A stretch of 27,430 nucleotides of DNA. It comes from Coraliomargaritaceae bacterium. GTDB lineage: Bacteria > Verrucomicrobiota > Verrucomicrobiia > Opitutales > Coraliomargaritaceae. The position numbers were made by a program. Positions 1 to 3,000 of the stretch are shown here, one piece after another. Where the stretch lies: positions 1-27,430 of the forward strand of contig CBFHKU010000015.1 of NCBI GenBank assembly GCA_965656495.1, read 5' to 3'. The first letter of the stretch is position 1, and the number at the start of each line of letters is the position of its first letter.

Positions 1-3000
1 TCACGTCCGATTCCGCAGCCGGCAAGGAGCCGCCCCAGGTCGTGGCGTCACTCCAGTCACCGCTTTGGGTAGCGCTTGCTGCGGGCGCAGATATCGTCGA
101 TACCATCACATTCGCAGGAGCGGATGCGCTACCAACGTTACCAACGGCATCACGCATCGTGACCGTGTAGCGGTATTCTAAGCCTGTAGTCAGCCCCGTA
201 TCCTCATAATACGGCGAGCTCTGCCAACCACTGCTACTGCCACCTGCGTTCCCACTTGTTTCAGTAAAGAGATATTCAACCACGCCGGACGCATCGCTGC
301 CCGGCATTGCCAGCATCCTAACCGAACTCGCGTCCAAGGCAGTCGGCGCACCGTCAAAGCCCGCCGGGTTCGGAGTCGGCGTAGTCGCATCCGCATACAG
401 GCGGGTCATATTCGAGTCGGCATCATACCTCGCAACAACACCGCCACTGCTAGCGGAAGTGAACACATGGCCGGCGGCAATCCAGCCATCAAGTTTACTC
501 ACCGCATCGCCCTTAAGTATGAGTTCACCGTCCCCTTTCACATCAATCAGAAAATCCGCAGATGCACTTGTCATGTCGTTGACTCGAATGGTACCACCAT
601 AGAGTTTCAGATTGACCTTGCGACCGTCATGAAGATTCAGCCTCTTCGCGGTCACACTGCCTTCGAGCATCGTAAACTCTGTCCCCACAGTGCTCTTGAC
701 ACAAAGGTGTAGCCAACCGCTGGAGCCAAGATCGATCGTCCCCGTATTCGTGAAGCTGGACTCAGCATTCGCGTGGCCGCCAAGAACCATACCGGTGGCA
801 GTCAAAATCCCATGATTCTCAATGGTGTTAATTCCCTGCGATCTCAAGCTCCCACCAAGGGTGATCACACCGTGATTTGTCAGCGATGAGGTCTGATTTC
901 CGTTCGCCGCCAACTGAAGTGTAAGATTGCTCGTGGTAGCAAGCGTTCCGCTGGCACCAACGACCAAACTCCCCGGCCAATTTGACCGGCCCAGCTTCAC
1001 CTGATTCGCAAGCGCGCCCGCAGACTGAATTTCAGCAGCGACCGCTGCAGTCGAAAAGATGTCAACATTCGTTGTCGCGCTCGGAACGCCTACAGGGGCA
1101 TAATTGCTGCCATCAAACCAATTCGTGCCACTGGCGGTATCGAAGACTACAGAAAAGGCAGGCGTCGCACTGATTGCCACCAAGGGAATGAGCGCGAATG
1201 CACGCTTCATGAAATTGCCCCCTCTCCAATTGTGAAGCATCTTTTAAAGCAGCAGTGATCACACTGCAACAAACACAATGAGTTGATCATCTTCGTAGTA
1301 AAGTCGAGTTCGAGTAAGGGCTCTGTAGGGAGGAATTAACTGATCTTAGCAAGCGGGTCAAATACAGACAGGGCCTTGGTCTGTATTATTATTTGACACC
1401 GCTACTGAGTCATATCTGGAGGCTAATTGTTCCGAAAATCTCATCCATTTCATTAATAACTATCAATCATCGTGTATCATAACCTGAGCCCATCCTGAAT
1501 CAGCACTGAGTCTAGGCTGCAGCACCCTAAGGTTCCAAAATACAAACTCACAGTTTGGTATTTGGACTTAGAGACTAAAATTGTAGCGCTTTGCAGTAGC
1601 TCTGCGATTAGGCGTAGTTTCAGGCGGCTAAACCGAAACACGGGCTGAAGCACCACGCACCGGTAAAGTAGGACGCGAAAAGCACCCTTCAGCACTGAGC
1701 TTTCAGTCACAGTGCTGCGGCGTTTATTTCGTTGCCTGATCGACCAATGAATCCATTTTTTCGCCAAGAACCGTTAAGGCGCTTGTCTCCGGGGCGACCG
1801 AGCAGGCTGCGGAAGAACTTTCAGTTGGCGTCCAGACTTTCTGGTTTTCCTCAATAAACTCCTTGGCTAAATTCATGAAGGTATGGGGCTGCTCCTCCGG
1901 CAGGATTGCAAGGGGATGCTCATACCATGATTGAATCGTGCCCAGCGCAGGCATCAGCCCGCTATGCTTAACCGACCGCAGGCAATTCATTACGTTTTCA
2001 TGGAAGAGCTGATCGGACGTGCTTCCTCCGGTATGATCATTGAACAGGAAGTAGAACTCCAGCCCCTGCTCTTTGCAAAATGCTTCCATCGCCCGAAGCT
2101 TTGCCCAGCCGTTCTCGGTGTTCACAATCCGCTCATAGGAATACTCGGGCTGAAAAATATCGATCCGGGTGTCCAAAGCATGACATGCCTCGATGACATC
2201 AAGGAGTATATCTTTTAAATCGCCATAATCCTCAGCGGGCACTTCTGCCGGGTAGGTCGCCGCGTCGTCCCAATGGAAACGAAAGGCGGCCTCAAGGATG
2301 CCGACCTTCAGGTTCGGATACTGCTGCTTGATCCCCGCAACATATTCCGCGTATCTTCTGACGGCGTCTTCATAAGTCCATTTATAGACTGGTATCGTGT
2401 CCGCATGGTGTTGCGATTTGACGAAGACATTATCTGTGATGATAAAGTCAACCGTGCCACCGGCCGCAGTGATCGGATCCAGTAGAGTTCTCTCGGTCGC
2501 TTCGTGTCCTGCCCGAATCCCCACCTCGACCGCAAAGGCCTTGCCCATCCCGGCAAGATTCGCCACCGATTGCCGCAAAAGCTCAGGATCATTACGATAC
2601 AGCCAGGCGAGCGTCGCGGTGTAAAACTTGAAGTGTGAGACATTCTCGAGCACCTCGCTCCACTCATCCGTCTGATTGATAAAAAGATCCTCCACTCCCC
2701 GAACAAATGCCGTTTCACCCAAGGCCTTTGGCGTCAGCCGCGGACAGACGGTCACCTGCATCGGCTCCACCGCAAAGGTACTGCCCGCCATGCAGAAAAG
2801 CGTTGTTAGCTGTTTCCAATATTTCGAAACGATGCTTCCAATTCGAGCAGTCAACTCGGTAGAGCGCTCTGTTTTTTTTAAAACTCTTAACATATTTTGT
2901 ATTATCTTTTCTTAATCGCTTCTACTCGGAGAGTTCAATGGATACGGCATTGAGTGTGACAACGGTTTTTTCGTTAACGGCGCCGTAATTCCATGCACCG

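What a model noticed while it worked through the whole genome (the two positions that open the first line are those of the whole stretch)
1724..2893. Uncharacterised secreted TIM-barrel family with three paralogs in sulfatase loci: candidate new carbohydrate-active enzy [...]
g01733 (C15:1724-2893, 389 aa), g01790 (C17:12286-13665, 459 aa; 51% identical) and the distant g00761 (C4:4061-5203, 380 aa; 24%) have no Pfam, NCBIfam or Swiss-Prot match, carry N-terminal signal/anchor sequences and sit beside sulfatase, GH94, GH78-like and sugar-transporter genes. The predicted fold is a complete (beta/alpha)8 barrel whose nearest solved structures are mostly clan GH-A-type glycoside hydrolases at 6-12% identity, with acidic residues conserved at the C-terminal ends of strands 3, 4 and 6 (E123, D154, D/E250) plus D225, N285, E333. 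Homologs elsewhere are fused to T9SS sorting tails, dockerins and Ig-like modules. This marks a small unnamed family of probably extracellular [...]
Evidence so far: No table rows; blastp among paralogs; Pfam at E<=0.01 nothing for the three. phmmer vs 1.84 billion cluster representatives: 312 at E<=1e-3, 89 at <=1e-10. Pfam scan of 36 aligned members: no family on the barrel; Por_Secre_tail in 6, FlgD_ig in 4, Dockerin_1 in 2. AlphaFold2 with 36 sequences: pLDDT 88, pTM 0.80, eight beta-alpha units between residues 46 and 351. VIA-align vs 48,161 chains: GH20 8qk1 Z 17.2, Klotho/GH1 16.7, GH5 8d89 16.2, GH53 1r8l 16.1 (240-289 residues aligned). Conservation counted on alignment A6: E123 31/36, D154 32/36, D225 34/36, N285 33/36, E333 34/36. 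ESM Atlas: nearest clusters are unnamed proteins of Verrucomicrobiota, Planctomycetota, Acidobacteriota. Of 101 s [...]
(Added by a program. Inside this text positions count along the whole contig: contig position 1 is position 1 of the stretch shown here. "Call 12" and the like, gene names such as g00115 and contig names such as C1 are that model's own, and its searches are not shown. The text may have been shortened before it was handed on; [...] marks where a part breaks off. The agent that wrote the report below was given it as the finding of a first reader that could run no searches.)

Follow-up and report, generated by a model that had tools for sequence, protein, structure and literature searches.

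The report
Unnamed TIM-barrel enzyme partnered with sulfatases
This gene encodes an exported barrel-shaped enzyme from a family no database names; it sits beside, and in other bacteria is fused to, sulfate-removing enzymes, so it is probably a new sugar-cutting enzyme for sulfated marine polysaccharides.

Summary
Window 1724-2893 on the minus strand is a real 389-aa gene (P0001). It has two paralogs in the same 2.06-Mb genome. Pfam, NCBIfam and PDB sequence searches give no match. AlphaFold2 predicts a confident (beta/alpha)8 barrel (pLDDT 89). The family has 312 clusters at 50% identity.

Structure searches with two family members give only a flat plateau (Z 17 to 14) of GH20, GH53, GH1 and GH5 mixed with non-glycosidase barrels, so no known family can be assigned.

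New here: the P0001 clade (49-89% identity, support 0.97) is linked to S1 sulfatases. Two protein clusters carry sulfatase then barrel, and one metagenome gene carries barrel then sulfatase. A distant member does too. Four proteins fuse a GH5-like module to the barrel. A sulfatase is adjacent or fused in 11 of 16 readable loci, against 3.1% of genes in this genome. The partner sulfatases resemble galactose/GalNAc sulfatases (S1_15, S1_16, S1_19).

Only acids, Asn, Ser, Trp and Tyr are conserved at the strand ends. The strand-7 Glu of clan GH-A is Asn.

Best reading (about 0.5): an exported glycoside hydrolase of an uncatalogued family, with Asp154 and Glu250 as candidate catalytic pair. Chemistry and substrate remain inferred.

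The parts
1724..2893 (-). Gene for P0001, 389 aa: N-terminal export-like segment plus a (beta/alpha)8 barrel, member of an unnamed family
   Evidence: ORF and translation; 40 homologs at 50-89% identity; 312 clusters at E<=1e-3; AF2 pLDDT 89.3
2771..2893 (-). Residues 1-41: long charged N-region, then a weakly hydrophobic stretch LTTLFCMAGSTFA before VEP. Probable but atypical Sec signal. A TTG at codon 14 would give a start like that of the Coraliomargarita ortholog P0003
   Evidence: Sequence; hydropathy 1.59 against the 1.9 bar; alignment with P0002/P0003
1841..2758 (-). Barrel, residues 46-351. Strands: b1 46-50, b2 87-91, b3 119-124, b4 148-154, b5 196-201, b6 246-249, b7 279-284, b8 317-321
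   Evidence: DSSP on the AF2 model
2432..2434 (-). Codon of Asp154, last residue of strand 4: candidate catalytic nucleophile or acid
   Evidence: 106 D + 3 E of 118 domains; strand map
2144..2146 (-). Codon of Glu250, first residue after strand 6: the best-conserved acid of the family (Asp in most members, Glu in the P0001 clade)
   Evidence: 102 D + 14 E of 118; invariant E in the 22-sequence clade alignment
2525..2527 (-). Codon of Glu123, end of strand 3: conserved acid
   Evidence: 102 E + 4 D of 118
2039..2041 (-). Codon of Asn285, just after strand 7, at the position where clan GH-A carries its nucleophile Glu
   Evidence: 102 N of 118
1895..1927 (-). Codons of Trp323 to Glu333 (SWY.HP....PE motif after strand 8): conserved aromatic platform and acid
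   Evidence: W323 112 of 116, P327 114 of 116, P332 110 of 115, E333 103 E + 4 D of 115
2922..5519 (-). 865-aa S1 sulfatase directly upstream (28-nt gap), same strand. Nearest solved relative is a kappa-carrageenan sulfatase S1_16. Its 375-aa C-terminal extension has no Pfam match
   Evidence: Pfam; PDB 9fo1 E 1.4e-93; extension 79-83% identical in two Coraliomargarita MAGs
5552..7057 (-). 501-aa S1 sulfatase with a TAT signal, same strand, 32 nt upstream of the 865-aa sulfatase
   Evidence: Pfam; weak PDB relatives
7039..8010 (-). 323-aa ORF without a Pfam match, overlapping the start of the sulfatase gene; possible first gene of the transcription unit
   Evidence: a promoter-like site at 8193-8165 (minus strand) is a consensus match only
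18417..20012 (-). 531-aa S1 sulfatase: closest own-genome relative (38-40% identity) of the sulfatase fused to the barrel in L097 and of the barrel-adjacent sulfatase in L099, and among the three best (40%) for L094/L095
   Evidence: blastp
23628..25085 (-). 485-aa S1_15-like sulfatase: 76% identical to the sulfatase half of fusion protein P0201, and 88% identical to the sulfatase directly downstream of the barrel gene in same-genus genome G009
   Evidence: blastp; PDB 6s20 GalNAc-6-O-sulfatase 3.6e-83 and 9bau S1_15B

Best explanation
P0001 is an exported (periplasmic or surface) enzyme of an uncatalogued (beta/alpha)8-barrel family. It is most likely a glycoside hydrolase.

Its clade works with formylglycine (S1) sulfatases on a sulfated glycan, probably galactose- or GalNAc-containing. 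The sulfatases would strip sulfate esters, and the barrel would cut the glycosidic bond of the exposed or still-sulfated sugar.

The active site lies at the C-terminal ends of the strands. Asp154 (strand 4) and Glu250 (strand 6; Asp in most family members) are the most likely catalytic pair. That is the strand-4/strand-6 layout of retaining alpha-glycosidases such as GH168 and GH29. Glu123, Asn285, Trp323 and Glu333 would shape the -1 subsite. Arg127, Arg205, Arg255 and His287, which are specific to this clade, would bind sulfate.

Shown: the gene, the family, the fold, the conservation pattern, and the fusions and adjacency with sulfatases. Inferred: hydrolase chemistry, the catalytic pair, stereochemistry and the substrate.
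For: 1. Fold and conservation.
- Two members give confident barrel models (pLDDT 89.3 and 90.4).
- The conserved polar residues all sit at or just after strand ends.
- They are acids, Asn, Ser, Trp and Tyr only. No His, Lys, Arg or Cys is the commonest residue in 60% or more of the 118 domains. This fits a sugar-binding hydrolase site and not the His/Lys-dependent barrel chemistries. That last contrast is recalled knowledge.

2. Export and modules.
- 73 of 86 complete N-termini have a hydrophobic leader, against 628 of 1706 genes of this genome.
- Of the 90 homologs scanned, 15 carry Por_Secre_tail, 5 Dockerin_1 and 2 CBM_4_9. Some carry second catalytic modules: GH26-like (5), GH30 (1), GH5 (1), sulfatase (1).

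3. Fusions inside the P0001 clade (FastTree support 0.973).
- P0198 and P0201: sulfatase then barrel.
- The L097 906-aa ORF: barrel then sulfatase.
- P0199, P0200, P0202 and L096: GH5-like module then barrel.
- The free counterparts are in this genome: window sulfatase 23628-25085 (76% to the P0201 half) and the GH5-like gene C19:7844-9238 (68%).

4. Adjacency. A sulfatase is adjacent or fused in 11 of 16 clade loci with a readable neighbour. The background is 51 of 1638 genes (3.1%) in this genome.

5. Partner sulfatases. Their nearest solved relatives are S1_15, S1_16 and S1_19 Gal/GalNAc sulfatases.

6. Precedent. The same genome encodes a GH53 galactanase fused to a sulfatase.

7. Catalytic layout. 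GH168 carries its catalytic Asp on strand 4 and Glu on strand 6, as do GH29, GH107 and GH151 (PMC12534559, passages read).
Against: - No activity, ligand or geometry was measured.
- No sequence or profile link to any glycoside hydrolase family was found. Pfam gave nothing on the barrel in the 90 homologs scanned or in the 46 alignment members at E up to 10. The PDB profile search was negative.
- hhalign probabilities were GH27 2.1%, GH29 3.5% (out of register), DUF4434 0.5%, GH53 0.5%.
- Structure matches are a flat plateau including pyruvate kinase, isopropylmalate synthase, PdxJ, AsbF and tagatose 4-epimerase.
- GH168, GH29 and GH107 chains are not in the top 50 of either list.
- The family lacks the C-terminal beta subdomain described for GH168.
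- Context outside the clade is mixed (GH29, GH116, GH78, GH39, GH36, or housekeeping genes), so one substrate for the whole family is unlikely.
- Loci from the same genus are not independent.
- P0001's own signal peptide is weak.
Confidence: 0.5

Rival explanations
1. It is a carbohydrate-active enzyme, but not a glycosidase. It would remove a non-sulfate decoration (acetyl, pyruvyl-ketal, lactyl or methyl) from a sulfated polysaccharide, clearing the way for sulfatases and glycosidases.
For: Sulfatases in related loci are also fused to esterase modules: sulfatase+SASA in L094 and sulfatase+GDSL in L097. So 'sulfatase plus decoration-remover' is a used architecture. The barrel is often a second module beside bona fide GH modules (GH26-like, GH30, GH5), as accessory enzymes are. 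No classical GH catalytic signature is present.
Against: No conserved Ser-His-Asp triad and no His or metal-ligand set. No His is the commonest residue in 60% or more of the 118 domains. An all-acid plus Trp/Tyr/Asn site is more typical of glycosidases (recalled). 41 of the top 50 structural neighbours are glycosidases or glycosidase-like in both lists.
Confidence: 0.17
2. It is a metal-dependent sugar isomerase, epimerase, dehydratase or 3-keto-glycoside lyase of the xylose-isomerase-like kind. It would serve the periplasmic oxidative glycoside-cleavage route encoded nearby (GFO/IDH/MocA oxidoreductases plus 3-keto-disaccharide-hydrolase-like proteins).
For: Both paralog loci hold two GFO_IDH_MocA genes and a 3keto-disac_hyd gene. 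An AP_endonuc_2 barrel gene lies next to P0189 and next to the L100 member. Foldseek ranks L-rhamnose isomerase high. VIA-align lists AsbF (Z 14.7) and tagatose 4-epimerase (Z 14.8). Carboxylates on consecutive strands could bind a metal.
Against: No Pfam AP_endonuc_2 hit in any member scanned. hhalign against 16 AP_endonuc_2 proteins gives 0.2% (a low-power test). No conserved His. T9SS tails, dockerins, CBMs and fusions to sulfatases and GH modules point to action on polymers outside the cytoplasm. The GFO/3-keto genes are separated from P0001 by an IS200-like gene and lie more than 7 kb away.
Confidence: 0.12
3. The family is not new. It already belongs to a CAZy family, or to a recently described one, that has no Pfam or NCBIfam model and no solved structure in the copies held here.
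For: CAZy creates families from single characterised enzymes, often before Pfam models exist. The 2026 preprint 10.64898/2026.05.19.726164 alone reports four new families (passages and section 7 read). No CAZy/dbCAN library was available to test this.
Against: The source names seen are 'hypothetical protein' or a name for a fused module, apart from one 'DUF1015' label. Most entries carry no name. Pfam (2025), NCBIfam (June 2026) and PDB (2026) are all negative. The new families read about are GH140-like, GH36/27-like or DUF4838 (GH163/GH185) and do not fit. Literature searches turned up no description of such a sulfatase-fused barrel.
Confidence: 0.15
4. It is a non-catalytic barrel: a glycan-binding or scaffolding partner of sulfatases, like the catalytically dead chitinase-like lectins or Klotho.
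For: The classical nucleophile position on strand 7 is Asn. Klotho chains are among the top structural matches. Fusion to sulfatases could reflect substrate delivery.
Against: Four acids are kept in 86-98% of 115-118 divergent domains at strand ends, which dead barrels usually lose (recalled). Tandem barrel copies and stand-alone secreted forms with T9SS tails look like enzymes.
Confidence: 0.05

Closest known systems
GH168 endo-1,3-fucanases and the GH29/GH107/GH151 group (fucan-active retaining (beta/alpha)8 enzymes)
   Same: (beta/alpha)8 barrel. A conserved Asp on strand 4, an acid on strand 6 and a conserved Trp near strand 8 (PMC12534559 passages). They act on sulfated marine polysaccharides in sulfatase-rich PVC and Bacteroidota loci. 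One family member lies directly upstream of a GH29 gene (G176).
   Different: No sequence or profile similarity: the PDB profile search was negative and the GH29 hhalign gave 3.5%, out of register. They are not among the top 50 structural matches. There is no C-terminal three-strand subdomain. The own genome has no GH29 at E<=1e-30. The partner sulfatases look Gal/GalNAc-specific, not fucose-specific.
Clan GH-A barrels, especially GH53 beta-1,4-galactanases and GH5
   Same: Same fold. GH53 chains recur near the top for both models: 9fli 16.3/15.8, 1r8l 15.9/16.1, 6gp5 15.3/15.9. There is a Trp after strand 8 and a Tyr after strand 6. The own genome fuses a true GH53 to a sulfatase, the same architecture as the barrel-sulfatase fusions.
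   Different: Strand 4 ends in Asp, not the Asn-Glu motif. Strand 7 ends in Asn285 (102 of 118), not the nucleophile Glu. Pfam GH5, GH53 and GH26 models do not hit the barrel. hhalign to GH53 gives 0.5%. The GH-A motif description is recalled knowledge.
GH20 / clan GH-K hexosaminidases and the DUF4838 families GH163/GH185
   Same: The best single structural match for both models is a GH20 chain: 8qk1 Z 16.9, rmsd 3.0, 242 aligned; 9fyl Z 16.4, rmsd 3.1, 242 aligned. GH185 is a precedent for a barrel glycosidase for sulfated sugars that lacked the parent family's motifs (PMC10570127 passages).
   Different: No H-x-G-G-D-E motif on strand 4 (motif as quoted in PMC10570127). No Pfam Glyco_hydro_20 or DUF4838 hit. 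The Z scores are tied with unrelated barrels.
Xylose-isomerase-like barrels (Pfam AP_endonuc_2)
   Same: TIM barrel with carboxylates on successive strands. Such genes neighbour two members. AsbF and rhamnose isomerase appear in the fold lists.
   Different: No Pfam hit. hhalign gives 0.2%. No conserved His. The family has an export and polymer-degrading module context.

Membership tests
Clan GH-A (GH5/GH53/GH26 type) | (beta/alpha)8 barrel | tested here: met
   AF2 models with pLDDT 89.3 and 90.4, each with eight strand-helix units
Clan GH-A (GH5/GH53/GH26 type) | Acid/base Glu in an Asn-Glu motif at the end of strand 4 (recalled definition) | tested here: not met
   Strand 4 ends in D154 (106 D, 3 E of 118), preceded by L/M/T and followed by G/S/N-P
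Clan GH-A (GH5/GH53/GH26 type) | Nucleophile Glu at the end of strand 7 (recalled definition) | tested here: not met
   Position 285 is Asn in 102 of 118 and Glu in 2. Position 287 is Glu in only 43 of 115
Clan GH-A (GH5/GH53/GH26 type) | Sequence or profile match to a member family | tested here: not met
   No Pfam hit on the barrel. hhalign to GH53 gives 0.5% (low power, 3 GH53 sequences)
GH168 (and the GH29/GH107/GH151 layout) | Catalytic Asp on strand 4 and Glu on strand 6 (PMC12534559) | tested here: inconclusive
   Acids are present at both positions (D154; D/E250 in 116 of 118). Their geometry and role could not be measured
GH168 (and the GH29/GH107/GH151 layout) | C-terminal three-strand beta subdomain packed on helix 7 (PMC12534559) | tested here: not met
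   No strand after residue 321 in the P0001 model or after 323 in the P0048 model
GH168 (and the GH29/GH107/GH151 layout) | Sequence, profile or fold match | tested here: inconclusive
   The PDB profile search was negative. The GH29 hhalign gave 3.5%, out of register. These families are not listed in the top 50 VIA rows. Absence from the list does not exclude them
GH27/GH36 (clan GH-D) | Profile similarity, including the strand-4 nucleophile motif | tested here: inconclusive
   hhalign against 20 GH27 sequences gives 2.1%, 24 columns, wrong region. The recalled motif likeness (VDYL..D) is not supported
GH20 (clan GH-K) | H-x-G-G then a D-E pair at strand 4 (as quoted in PMC10570127) | tested here: not met
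   There is no such motif. The strand-4 consensus is V-D-Y-L-x-L-D-G-P
Xylose-isomerase-like TIM barrel (AP_endonuc_2) | Pfam or profile match and a Glu-Asp-His-Glu metal site (site recalled) | tested here: not met
   No Pfam hit. hhalign gives 0.2%. No His is the commonest residue in 60% or more of the 118 domains
Any numbered CAZy family | Significant match to that family's HMM or a characterised member | not testable with these tools
   No CAZy/dbCAN library was held. Only Pfam, NCBIfam, PDB and the literature could be checked

The most novel reading that the evidence does not exclude
The barrel is a new kind of sulfo-glycan enzyme that needs a sulfatase at its side. It could be a 'sulfoglycosidase' that recognises and releases sulfated galactose or GalNAc units. 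Alternatively it could be a glycosidase with a new catalytic layout, using acids on strands 3, 4 and 6 plus a post-strand-8 Glu, with Asn where GH-A has its nucleophile. Either way it would found a new CAZy family and possibly a new clan. That family would explain part of the unassigned gene content of sulfatase-rich marine Verrucomicrobiota and Planctomycetota.
Probability: 0.15. Interest if true: 0.8.

Novelty: new variant of a known kind. Interest (0 to 1): 0.6.

Why it matters
Marine Verrucomicrobiota and Planctomycetota carry dozens to hundreds of sulfatases. This 2-Mb genome has about 68. The glycosidases that work with them on sulfated algal glycans are only partly known.

This family has no model in Pfam or NCBIfam and no solved relative. 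It is physically fused to sulfatases in several lineages. That makes it a concrete, cheap-to-test candidate for one of the missing steps.

If active, it would add a CAZy family. It would improve annotation of at least 312 protein clusters. It would also supply a tool enzyme for dissecting sulfated galactans or related polymers that affect marine carbon turnover.

Tried and rejected
- hhalign of the 118-domain family profile against alignments I built from phylum genomes: GH27 (20 sequences) 2.1%, GH29 (15) 3.5%, DUF4434 (15) 0.5%, AP_endonuc_2 (16) 0.2%, GH53 (3) 0.5%. All were negative. The test has low power: GH27-GH29 gave 0.8% and GH53-DUF4434 0.2%.
- My recalled likeness of the strand-4 motif to the GH27 nucleophile motif is therefore dropped.
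- Foldseek against PDB gave only generic barrels with TM 0.37-0.46.
- A second model of a more typical member (P0048) was folded in the hope of a sharper structural match. It gave the same plateau.
- GH168, GH29 and GH107 chains did not appear in the top 50 of either VIA list. This does not exclude them.
- ESM Atlas named neighbours (DUF4434 0.84, GH56, DUF4855, GH26, GH53) all scored under 0.9 and are leads only.
- The search for related loci with the broad alignment A1 failed for lack of a conserved stretch. I used the single protein (2 Coraliomargarita MAGs) and the clade alignment A2 (14 metagenome loci).
- Cluster names for 10 distant representatives were uninformative.
- Earlier-findings look-ups returned nothing.
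- Sequencing runs: no RNA holder is listed, so nothing can be said on expression.
- The promoter and terminator scan gave consensus matches only.
- The treekit maximum-likelihood run did not finish in 288 s and was replaced by FastTree.
- Papers checked and set aside as not this family: GH185/GH163 (DUF4838) and the GH_New1/GH_New2 preprint.
- Supplementary files of these papers were not read and might list further unknown-function families.

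
Full report
**1. The observation**

Window 1724-2893 holds one long ORF on the minus strand: 389 aa with an ATG start, kept as P0001. The plus-strand frame is full of stops.

The gene is the last of four same-strand ORFs with short gaps:
- a 323-aa ORF without a Pfam match (7039-8010);
- a TAT-signal S1 sulfatase (5552-7057);
- an 865-aa S1 sulfatase (2922-5519);
- P0001, 28 nt downstream.

The rest of the window holds an IS200-like transposase and a 3-keto-disaccharide-hydrolase-like gene. It also holds two GFO/IDH/MocA oxidoreductases, a gluconolactonase-like gene and a GntR regulator. Seven more sulfatase ORFs follow, the last cut at the contig end.

P0001 matches no library:
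- Pfam gives only GHL6 at E 0.061, far below its cut-off.
- NCBIfam gives nothing.
- PDB chains are not matched by the single sequence or by a 46-sequence profile (best E 0.23).

The assembly holding the window is 2.06 Mb and 99.4% complete. It has exactly three copies:
- P0001;
- P0189 on C17 (459 aa, 51% identical);
- P0190 on C4 (29% over 194 residues with the single sequence; E 1e-74 with the family profile).

phmmer over 1.84 billion cluster representatives gave 312, 89 and 9 proteins at E 1e-3, 1e-10 and 1e-30.

**2. Fold**

AlphaFold2 with 46 aligned members gave pLDDT 89.3 and pTM 0.81. The model has eight strand-helix units between residues 46 and 351. A second model of a more typical member (P0048, 54 sequences) gave pLDDT 90.4 and pTM 0.84 with the same topology.

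The structure searches did not single out a family:
- Foldseek against the PDB returned only generic barrels at TM 0.37-0.46: pyruvate kinase, dihydropteroate synthase and L-rhamnose isomerase.
- VIA-align against 48,161 chains gave a flat plateau for both models.
- For P0001 the top rows were GH20 8qk1 (Z 16.9, rmsd 3.0, 242 aligned), GH1 16.3, GH53 9fli 16.3, Klotho 16.2 and GH5 8d89 16.1. Rank 50 was at 14.2, and 1115 chains reached Z>=8.
- For P0048 the top rows were GH20 9fyl 16.4, GH53 1r8l 16.1, 6gp5 15.9 and 9fli 15.8, Cwp19 15.8 and pyruvate kinase 15.8. Rank 50 was at 14.3.
- In each list 9 of 50 rows are non-glycosidase barrels, such as isopropylmalate, homocitrate and citramalate synthases, PdxJ, AsbF, pyruvate kinases and tagatose 4-epimerase.

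The fold is certain. The family is not.

**3. Conservation**

I built an HMM from the 46-sequence alignment. It recovered 154 barrel domains in the proteins held, including tandem copies in P0049, P0072, P0087 and P0188. I then aligned 118 of them: P0001, the two paralogs and the 50%-identity representatives, leaving out P0001's close relatives.

The conserved polar positions, mapped on the model's strands, are:

| Position | Location | Count |
|---|---|---|
| E123 | end of strand 3 | 102 E + 4 D of 118 |
| D154 | end of strand 4 | 106 D + 3 E of 118 |
| 250 | just after strand 6 | 102 D + 14 E of 118 (best kept) |
| N285 | just after strand 7 | 102 of 118 |
| S322 | just after strand 8 | 105 of 116 |
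| W323 | just after strand 8 | 112 of 116 |
| E333 | P-E motif after strand 8 | 103 E + 4 D of 115 |

E201 at strand 5 is not conserved (55 E + 8 D of 118). Y253 is the commonest residue at its position in more than 60% of domains.

No His, Lys, Arg or Cys is the commonest residue in 60% or more of the 118 domains. From general knowledge, an active site of carboxylates, Asn and aromatic residues at the C-terminal strand ends is what glycosidases look like. Most other barrel chemistries need His or Lys: class I aldolases, amidohydrolases, xylose-isomerase-like enzymes and DRE-TIM lyases. That contrast is recalled, not tested.

The classical clan GH-A signature is absent. Strand 4 ends in Asp, not Asn-Glu. 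Strand 7 ends in Asn, not the nucleophile Glu.

An acid on strand 4 plus an acid on strand 6 is the layout reported for GH168 (D172 and E243). The same paper says GH29, GH107 and GH151 share it (PMC12534559, passages read). That is a resemblance of layout only. GH168's C-terminal three-strand subdomain is missing here, and no sequence or fold match to these families was found.

**4. Remote-homology attempts**

Pfam scans found no family on the barrel itself. I scanned 90 homologs at E<=0.01 and all 46 alignment members at E<=10.

I also built comparator alignments from genomes of the same phylum and ran hhalign against the family profile:

| Comparator | Sequences | Probability |
|---|---|---|
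| GH27 | 20 | 2.1% |
| GH29 | 15 | 3.5% (strands 5-7 aligned on GH29 strands 1-3, out of register) |
| DUF4434 | 15 | 0.5% |
| AP_endonuc_2 | 16 | 0.2% |
| GH53 | 3 | 0.5% |

Controls between known families were equally low (GH27-GH29 0.8%, GH53-DUF4434 0.2%). This test is weak and only says that nothing obvious was missed.

The source names seen are 'hypothetical protein', a name for a fused module, or in one case 'DUF1015'. Most entries carry no name.

**5. What the family travels with**

Across the 90 scanned homologs the barrel is joined to several modules:
- T9SS sorting tails (15 proteins), dockerins (5), FlgD_ig, Big_2, fn3 and CBM_4_9 (2);
- second catalytic modules: GH26-like (P0052, P0053, P0062, P0069, P0083), GH30 (P0062), GH5 (P0154) and an S1 sulfatase (P0148).

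A crude leader test is passed by 73 of 86 complete N-termini, against 628 of 1706 roughly called genes of this genome. P0189 has a canonical signal peptide and P0190 a lipobox-like one. P0001's own leader is weak (score 1.59, under the 1.9 bar). It is conserved in its two Coraliomargarita orthologs. A TTG at codon 14 would give the shorter leader seen in P0003.

In a sample of 401 genomes of the phylum, the profile hit 12 at E<=1e-10. Excluding G000, that includes 2 of 5 in the genus and 2 of 25 in the family. The gene is accessory and patchy.

Neighbours of distant members are mixed:
- a GH29 gene directly downstream (G176);
- GH116 and a CBM9 protein (G223);
- GH78 genes (G026);
- GH39 (G287);
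- NPCBM+GH36 (G062);
- a sulfatase, SASA and GDSL genes (G197);
- housekeeping genes (G022).

The P0190 type keeps its synteny with GH94 and a GH78-like gene in G072.

**6. The new result: the P0001 clade is tied to S1 sulfatases**

A profile search of the 5.8-billion-cluster collection, with Pfam and HMM mapping, showed multi-domain proteins at 61-67% identity to P0001:
- P0198 (802 aa): sulfatase at residues 36-435, barrel at 464-787.
- P0201 (810 aa): sulfatase at 24-479, barrel at 487-808.
- P0199, P0200 and P0202 (739-750 aa): a GH5-like N-terminal module, then the barrel. Pfam Cellulase scores are E 1e-4, 1e-5 and none.

Metagenome contigs added two more:
- L097, a 906-aa ORF with the barrel first and the sulfatase second;
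- L096, a GH5-like module plus the barrel.

In a FastTree of 126 barrel domains, the eleven clade sequences I put in form a clade with support 0.973. These are P0001, P0189, three fused forms and six others. P0190 sits elsewhere with P0122 and P0157 (0.999).

The free counterparts of the fusion partners are in this very genome:
- The P0201 sulfatase half is 76% identical to window sulfatase 23628-25085.
- The GH5-like half of P0200 is 68% identical to C19:7844-9238. That gene lies in a locus with a GH106 rhamnosidase and an MFS_2 transporter.

In same-genus genomes G009 and G072, the P0189-type gene sits inside the same sulfatase array that fills the right half of this window. G009's downstream sulfatase is 88% identical to 23628-25085.

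I counted clade loci in which at least one neighbour can be read:
- A sulfatase is adjacent or fused in 11 of 16: the window, C17 (a truncated sulfatase), G009, G072, L035, L036, L094, L095, L097, L099 and L101.
- It is not in L091, L093, L098, L100 and L102.
- L089, L090 and L092 are too short, and L096 has no flank. These were left out.
- Several of the 11 are close kin and so not independent.

For scale, 51 of 1638 non-sulfatase genes (3.1%) of this sulfatase-rich genome have a sulfatase neighbour. That genome has 68-69 sulfatase genes.

**7. Which sulfated sugar?**

The nearest solved relatives of the partner sulfatases are all galactose or GalNAc sulfatases:

| Sulfatase | Nearest solved relative | E-value |
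|---|---|---|
| window 23628-25085 (the P0201 type) | 6s20 GalNAc-6-O-sulfatase; also 9bau S1_15B (1.6e-72) | 3.6e-83 |
| adjacent 2922-5519 | 9fo1 kappa-carrageenan sulfatase S1_16 | 1.4e-93 |
| L097 fused sulfatase | 9fo1 | 7e-84 |
| P0198 sulfatase | S1_19-type carrageenan sulfatases and 6bia | about 1e-63 to 5e-65 |

A 2026 preprint states that an S1_16 enzyme removes the 4-sulfate of the non-reducing galactose of kappa-carrageenan oligosaccharides (10.64898/2026.05.19.726164, section 7 read).

The same genome also encodes a true GH53 beta-1,4-galactanase fused to a sulfatase (C1:16444-19254). GH53 was found in only 3 of 41 sampled genomes of the phylum at E<=1e-30.

Within the 22-sequence clade alignment, Arg127, Arg205, Arg255 and His287 are invariant. 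They lie 3-6 residues after strands 3, 5, 6 and 7. The wider family has Gly, Asn/Trp, Tyr and Glu at these positions. I read this as adaptation to an anionic substrate.

A sulfated galactan or GalNAc-containing glycan is therefore my best guess for this clade, but it is a guess. GH116 and a FucU-like gene lie beside P0189, GH95 beside L101, and rhamnosidases lie elsewhere. These leave other sulfated algal glycans open.

**8. Mechanism proposed, and rivals**

Most likely (about 0.5): an exported glycoside hydrolase acting in sequence with exo-sulfatases. Asp154 and Glu250 are the candidate catalytic pair, in a strand-4/strand-6 retaining layout. I give that specific pair no more than about 0.3.

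Rivals:
- a decoration-removing enzyme, since sulfatases in these loci are also fused to SASA and GDSL esterases;
- a metal-dependent isomerase or lyase serving the neighbouring GFO/3-keto genes, weakened by the lack of His, the negative AP_endonuc_2 tests and the extracellular module context;
- membership of a CAZy family that the libraries here do not cover (untestable here);
- a non-catalytic barrel (unlikely, given four acids kept in 86-98% of domains).

**9. Habitat**

The two closest genomic relatives are Coraliomargarita sp. MAGs at 89% and 82% identity. Near-identical DNA of this gene is held by seawater and marine plankton metagenome runs from 7 studies dated 2018-2025. Some of these may be the source of the assembly.

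This fits the picture of free-living marine Verrucomicrobiota as consumers of sulfated algal polysaccharides (PMC8857213; search listing and start of the abstract only).

**10. Verdict**

The finding is real and better supported than when it was handed over. It is an uncatalogued, exported barrel family. One clade is a fusion partner of S1 sulfatases in both domain orders.

It is a good candidate for a new glycoside hydrolase family for sulfated marine glycans. No activity, catalytic geometry or CAZy check exists yet. I rate it a new variant of a known kind, with interest 0.6.

Noticed in passing
own genome G000:C1:16444-19254 (+), locus L120: One ORF of about 870-920 aa joins a full GH53 beta-1,4-galactanase domain (Pfam E 2e-86) to an S1 sulfatase domain, inside another sulfatase cluster. 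GH53 was found in only 3 of 41 sampled genomes of the phylum.
   Followed up: partly
whole genome G000: 69 Pfam sulfatase matches (about 68 genes of roughly 1700) in a 2.06-Mb, 99.4%-complete genome. That is about 4% of genes, in arrays on C1, C2, C4, C13, C14, C15 and C17.
   Followed up: partly
window 2922-5519 (-), residues about 490-865: The sulfatase next to P0001 carries a 375-aa C-terminal extension with no Pfam match. It is 79-83% conserved in two Coraliomargarita MAG orthologs and 31% similar to part of the sulfatase-dockerin protein of G009.
   Followed up: partly
L002:2455-2817 (C-terminus of P0189); also P0034, P0035, P0037, P0041: The P0189-type proteins end in two roughly 50-residue repeats of similar sequence, with no Pfam hit. 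They look like a small tandem binding module.
   Followed up: no
window 9088-9684 (+): An IS200-like (Y1_Tnp) transposase gene separates the P0001/sulfatase unit from the GFO/3-keto-hydrolase/regulator block and the big sulfatase array. In same-genus genomes the barrel gene sits directly against that array, so the locus appears rearranged here.
   Followed up: partly
C17:1875-2279 + 2483-2938; C17:11519-12250; window 26896-27414: Split or stop-containing sulfatase genes, one of them directly upstream of P0189 with an in-frame TAG. These are probable pseudogenes in the arrays.
   Followed up: no
window 10189-14149 and L004:13502-19770: Both paralog loci carry two GFO_IDH_MocA oxidoreductases (one with a TAT signal) and a 3keto-disac_hyd protein. 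C17 adds an AP_endonuc_2 barrel. From memory, this set resembles the oxidative 3-keto-glycoside cleavage route.
   Followed up: no
proteins P0049, P0072, P0087, P0188: These proteins hold two full copies of the barrel in tandem. P0107, P0149 and P0152 join it to penicillin-amidase, creatininase and nucleoside-hydrolase domains.
   Followed up: no
protein P0017 (Fuerstiella sp. MAG): This 65%-identical homolog is labelled 'DUF1015 domain-containing protein' in NCBI, but its precomputed Pfam column is empty. The label is probably a mis-annotation.
   Followed up: no
L033:9323-10270 (-) in genome G062: The barrel match lies in a 783-aa open frame that abuts or overlaps an ORF with NPCBM + GH36 (Melibiase) domains. 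This could be a fusion or a frameshift.
   Followed up: no
own genome G000: No GH29 alpha-L-fucosidase at E<=1e-30, although same-genus genomes G021 and G009 have 5 and 1.
   Followed up: no
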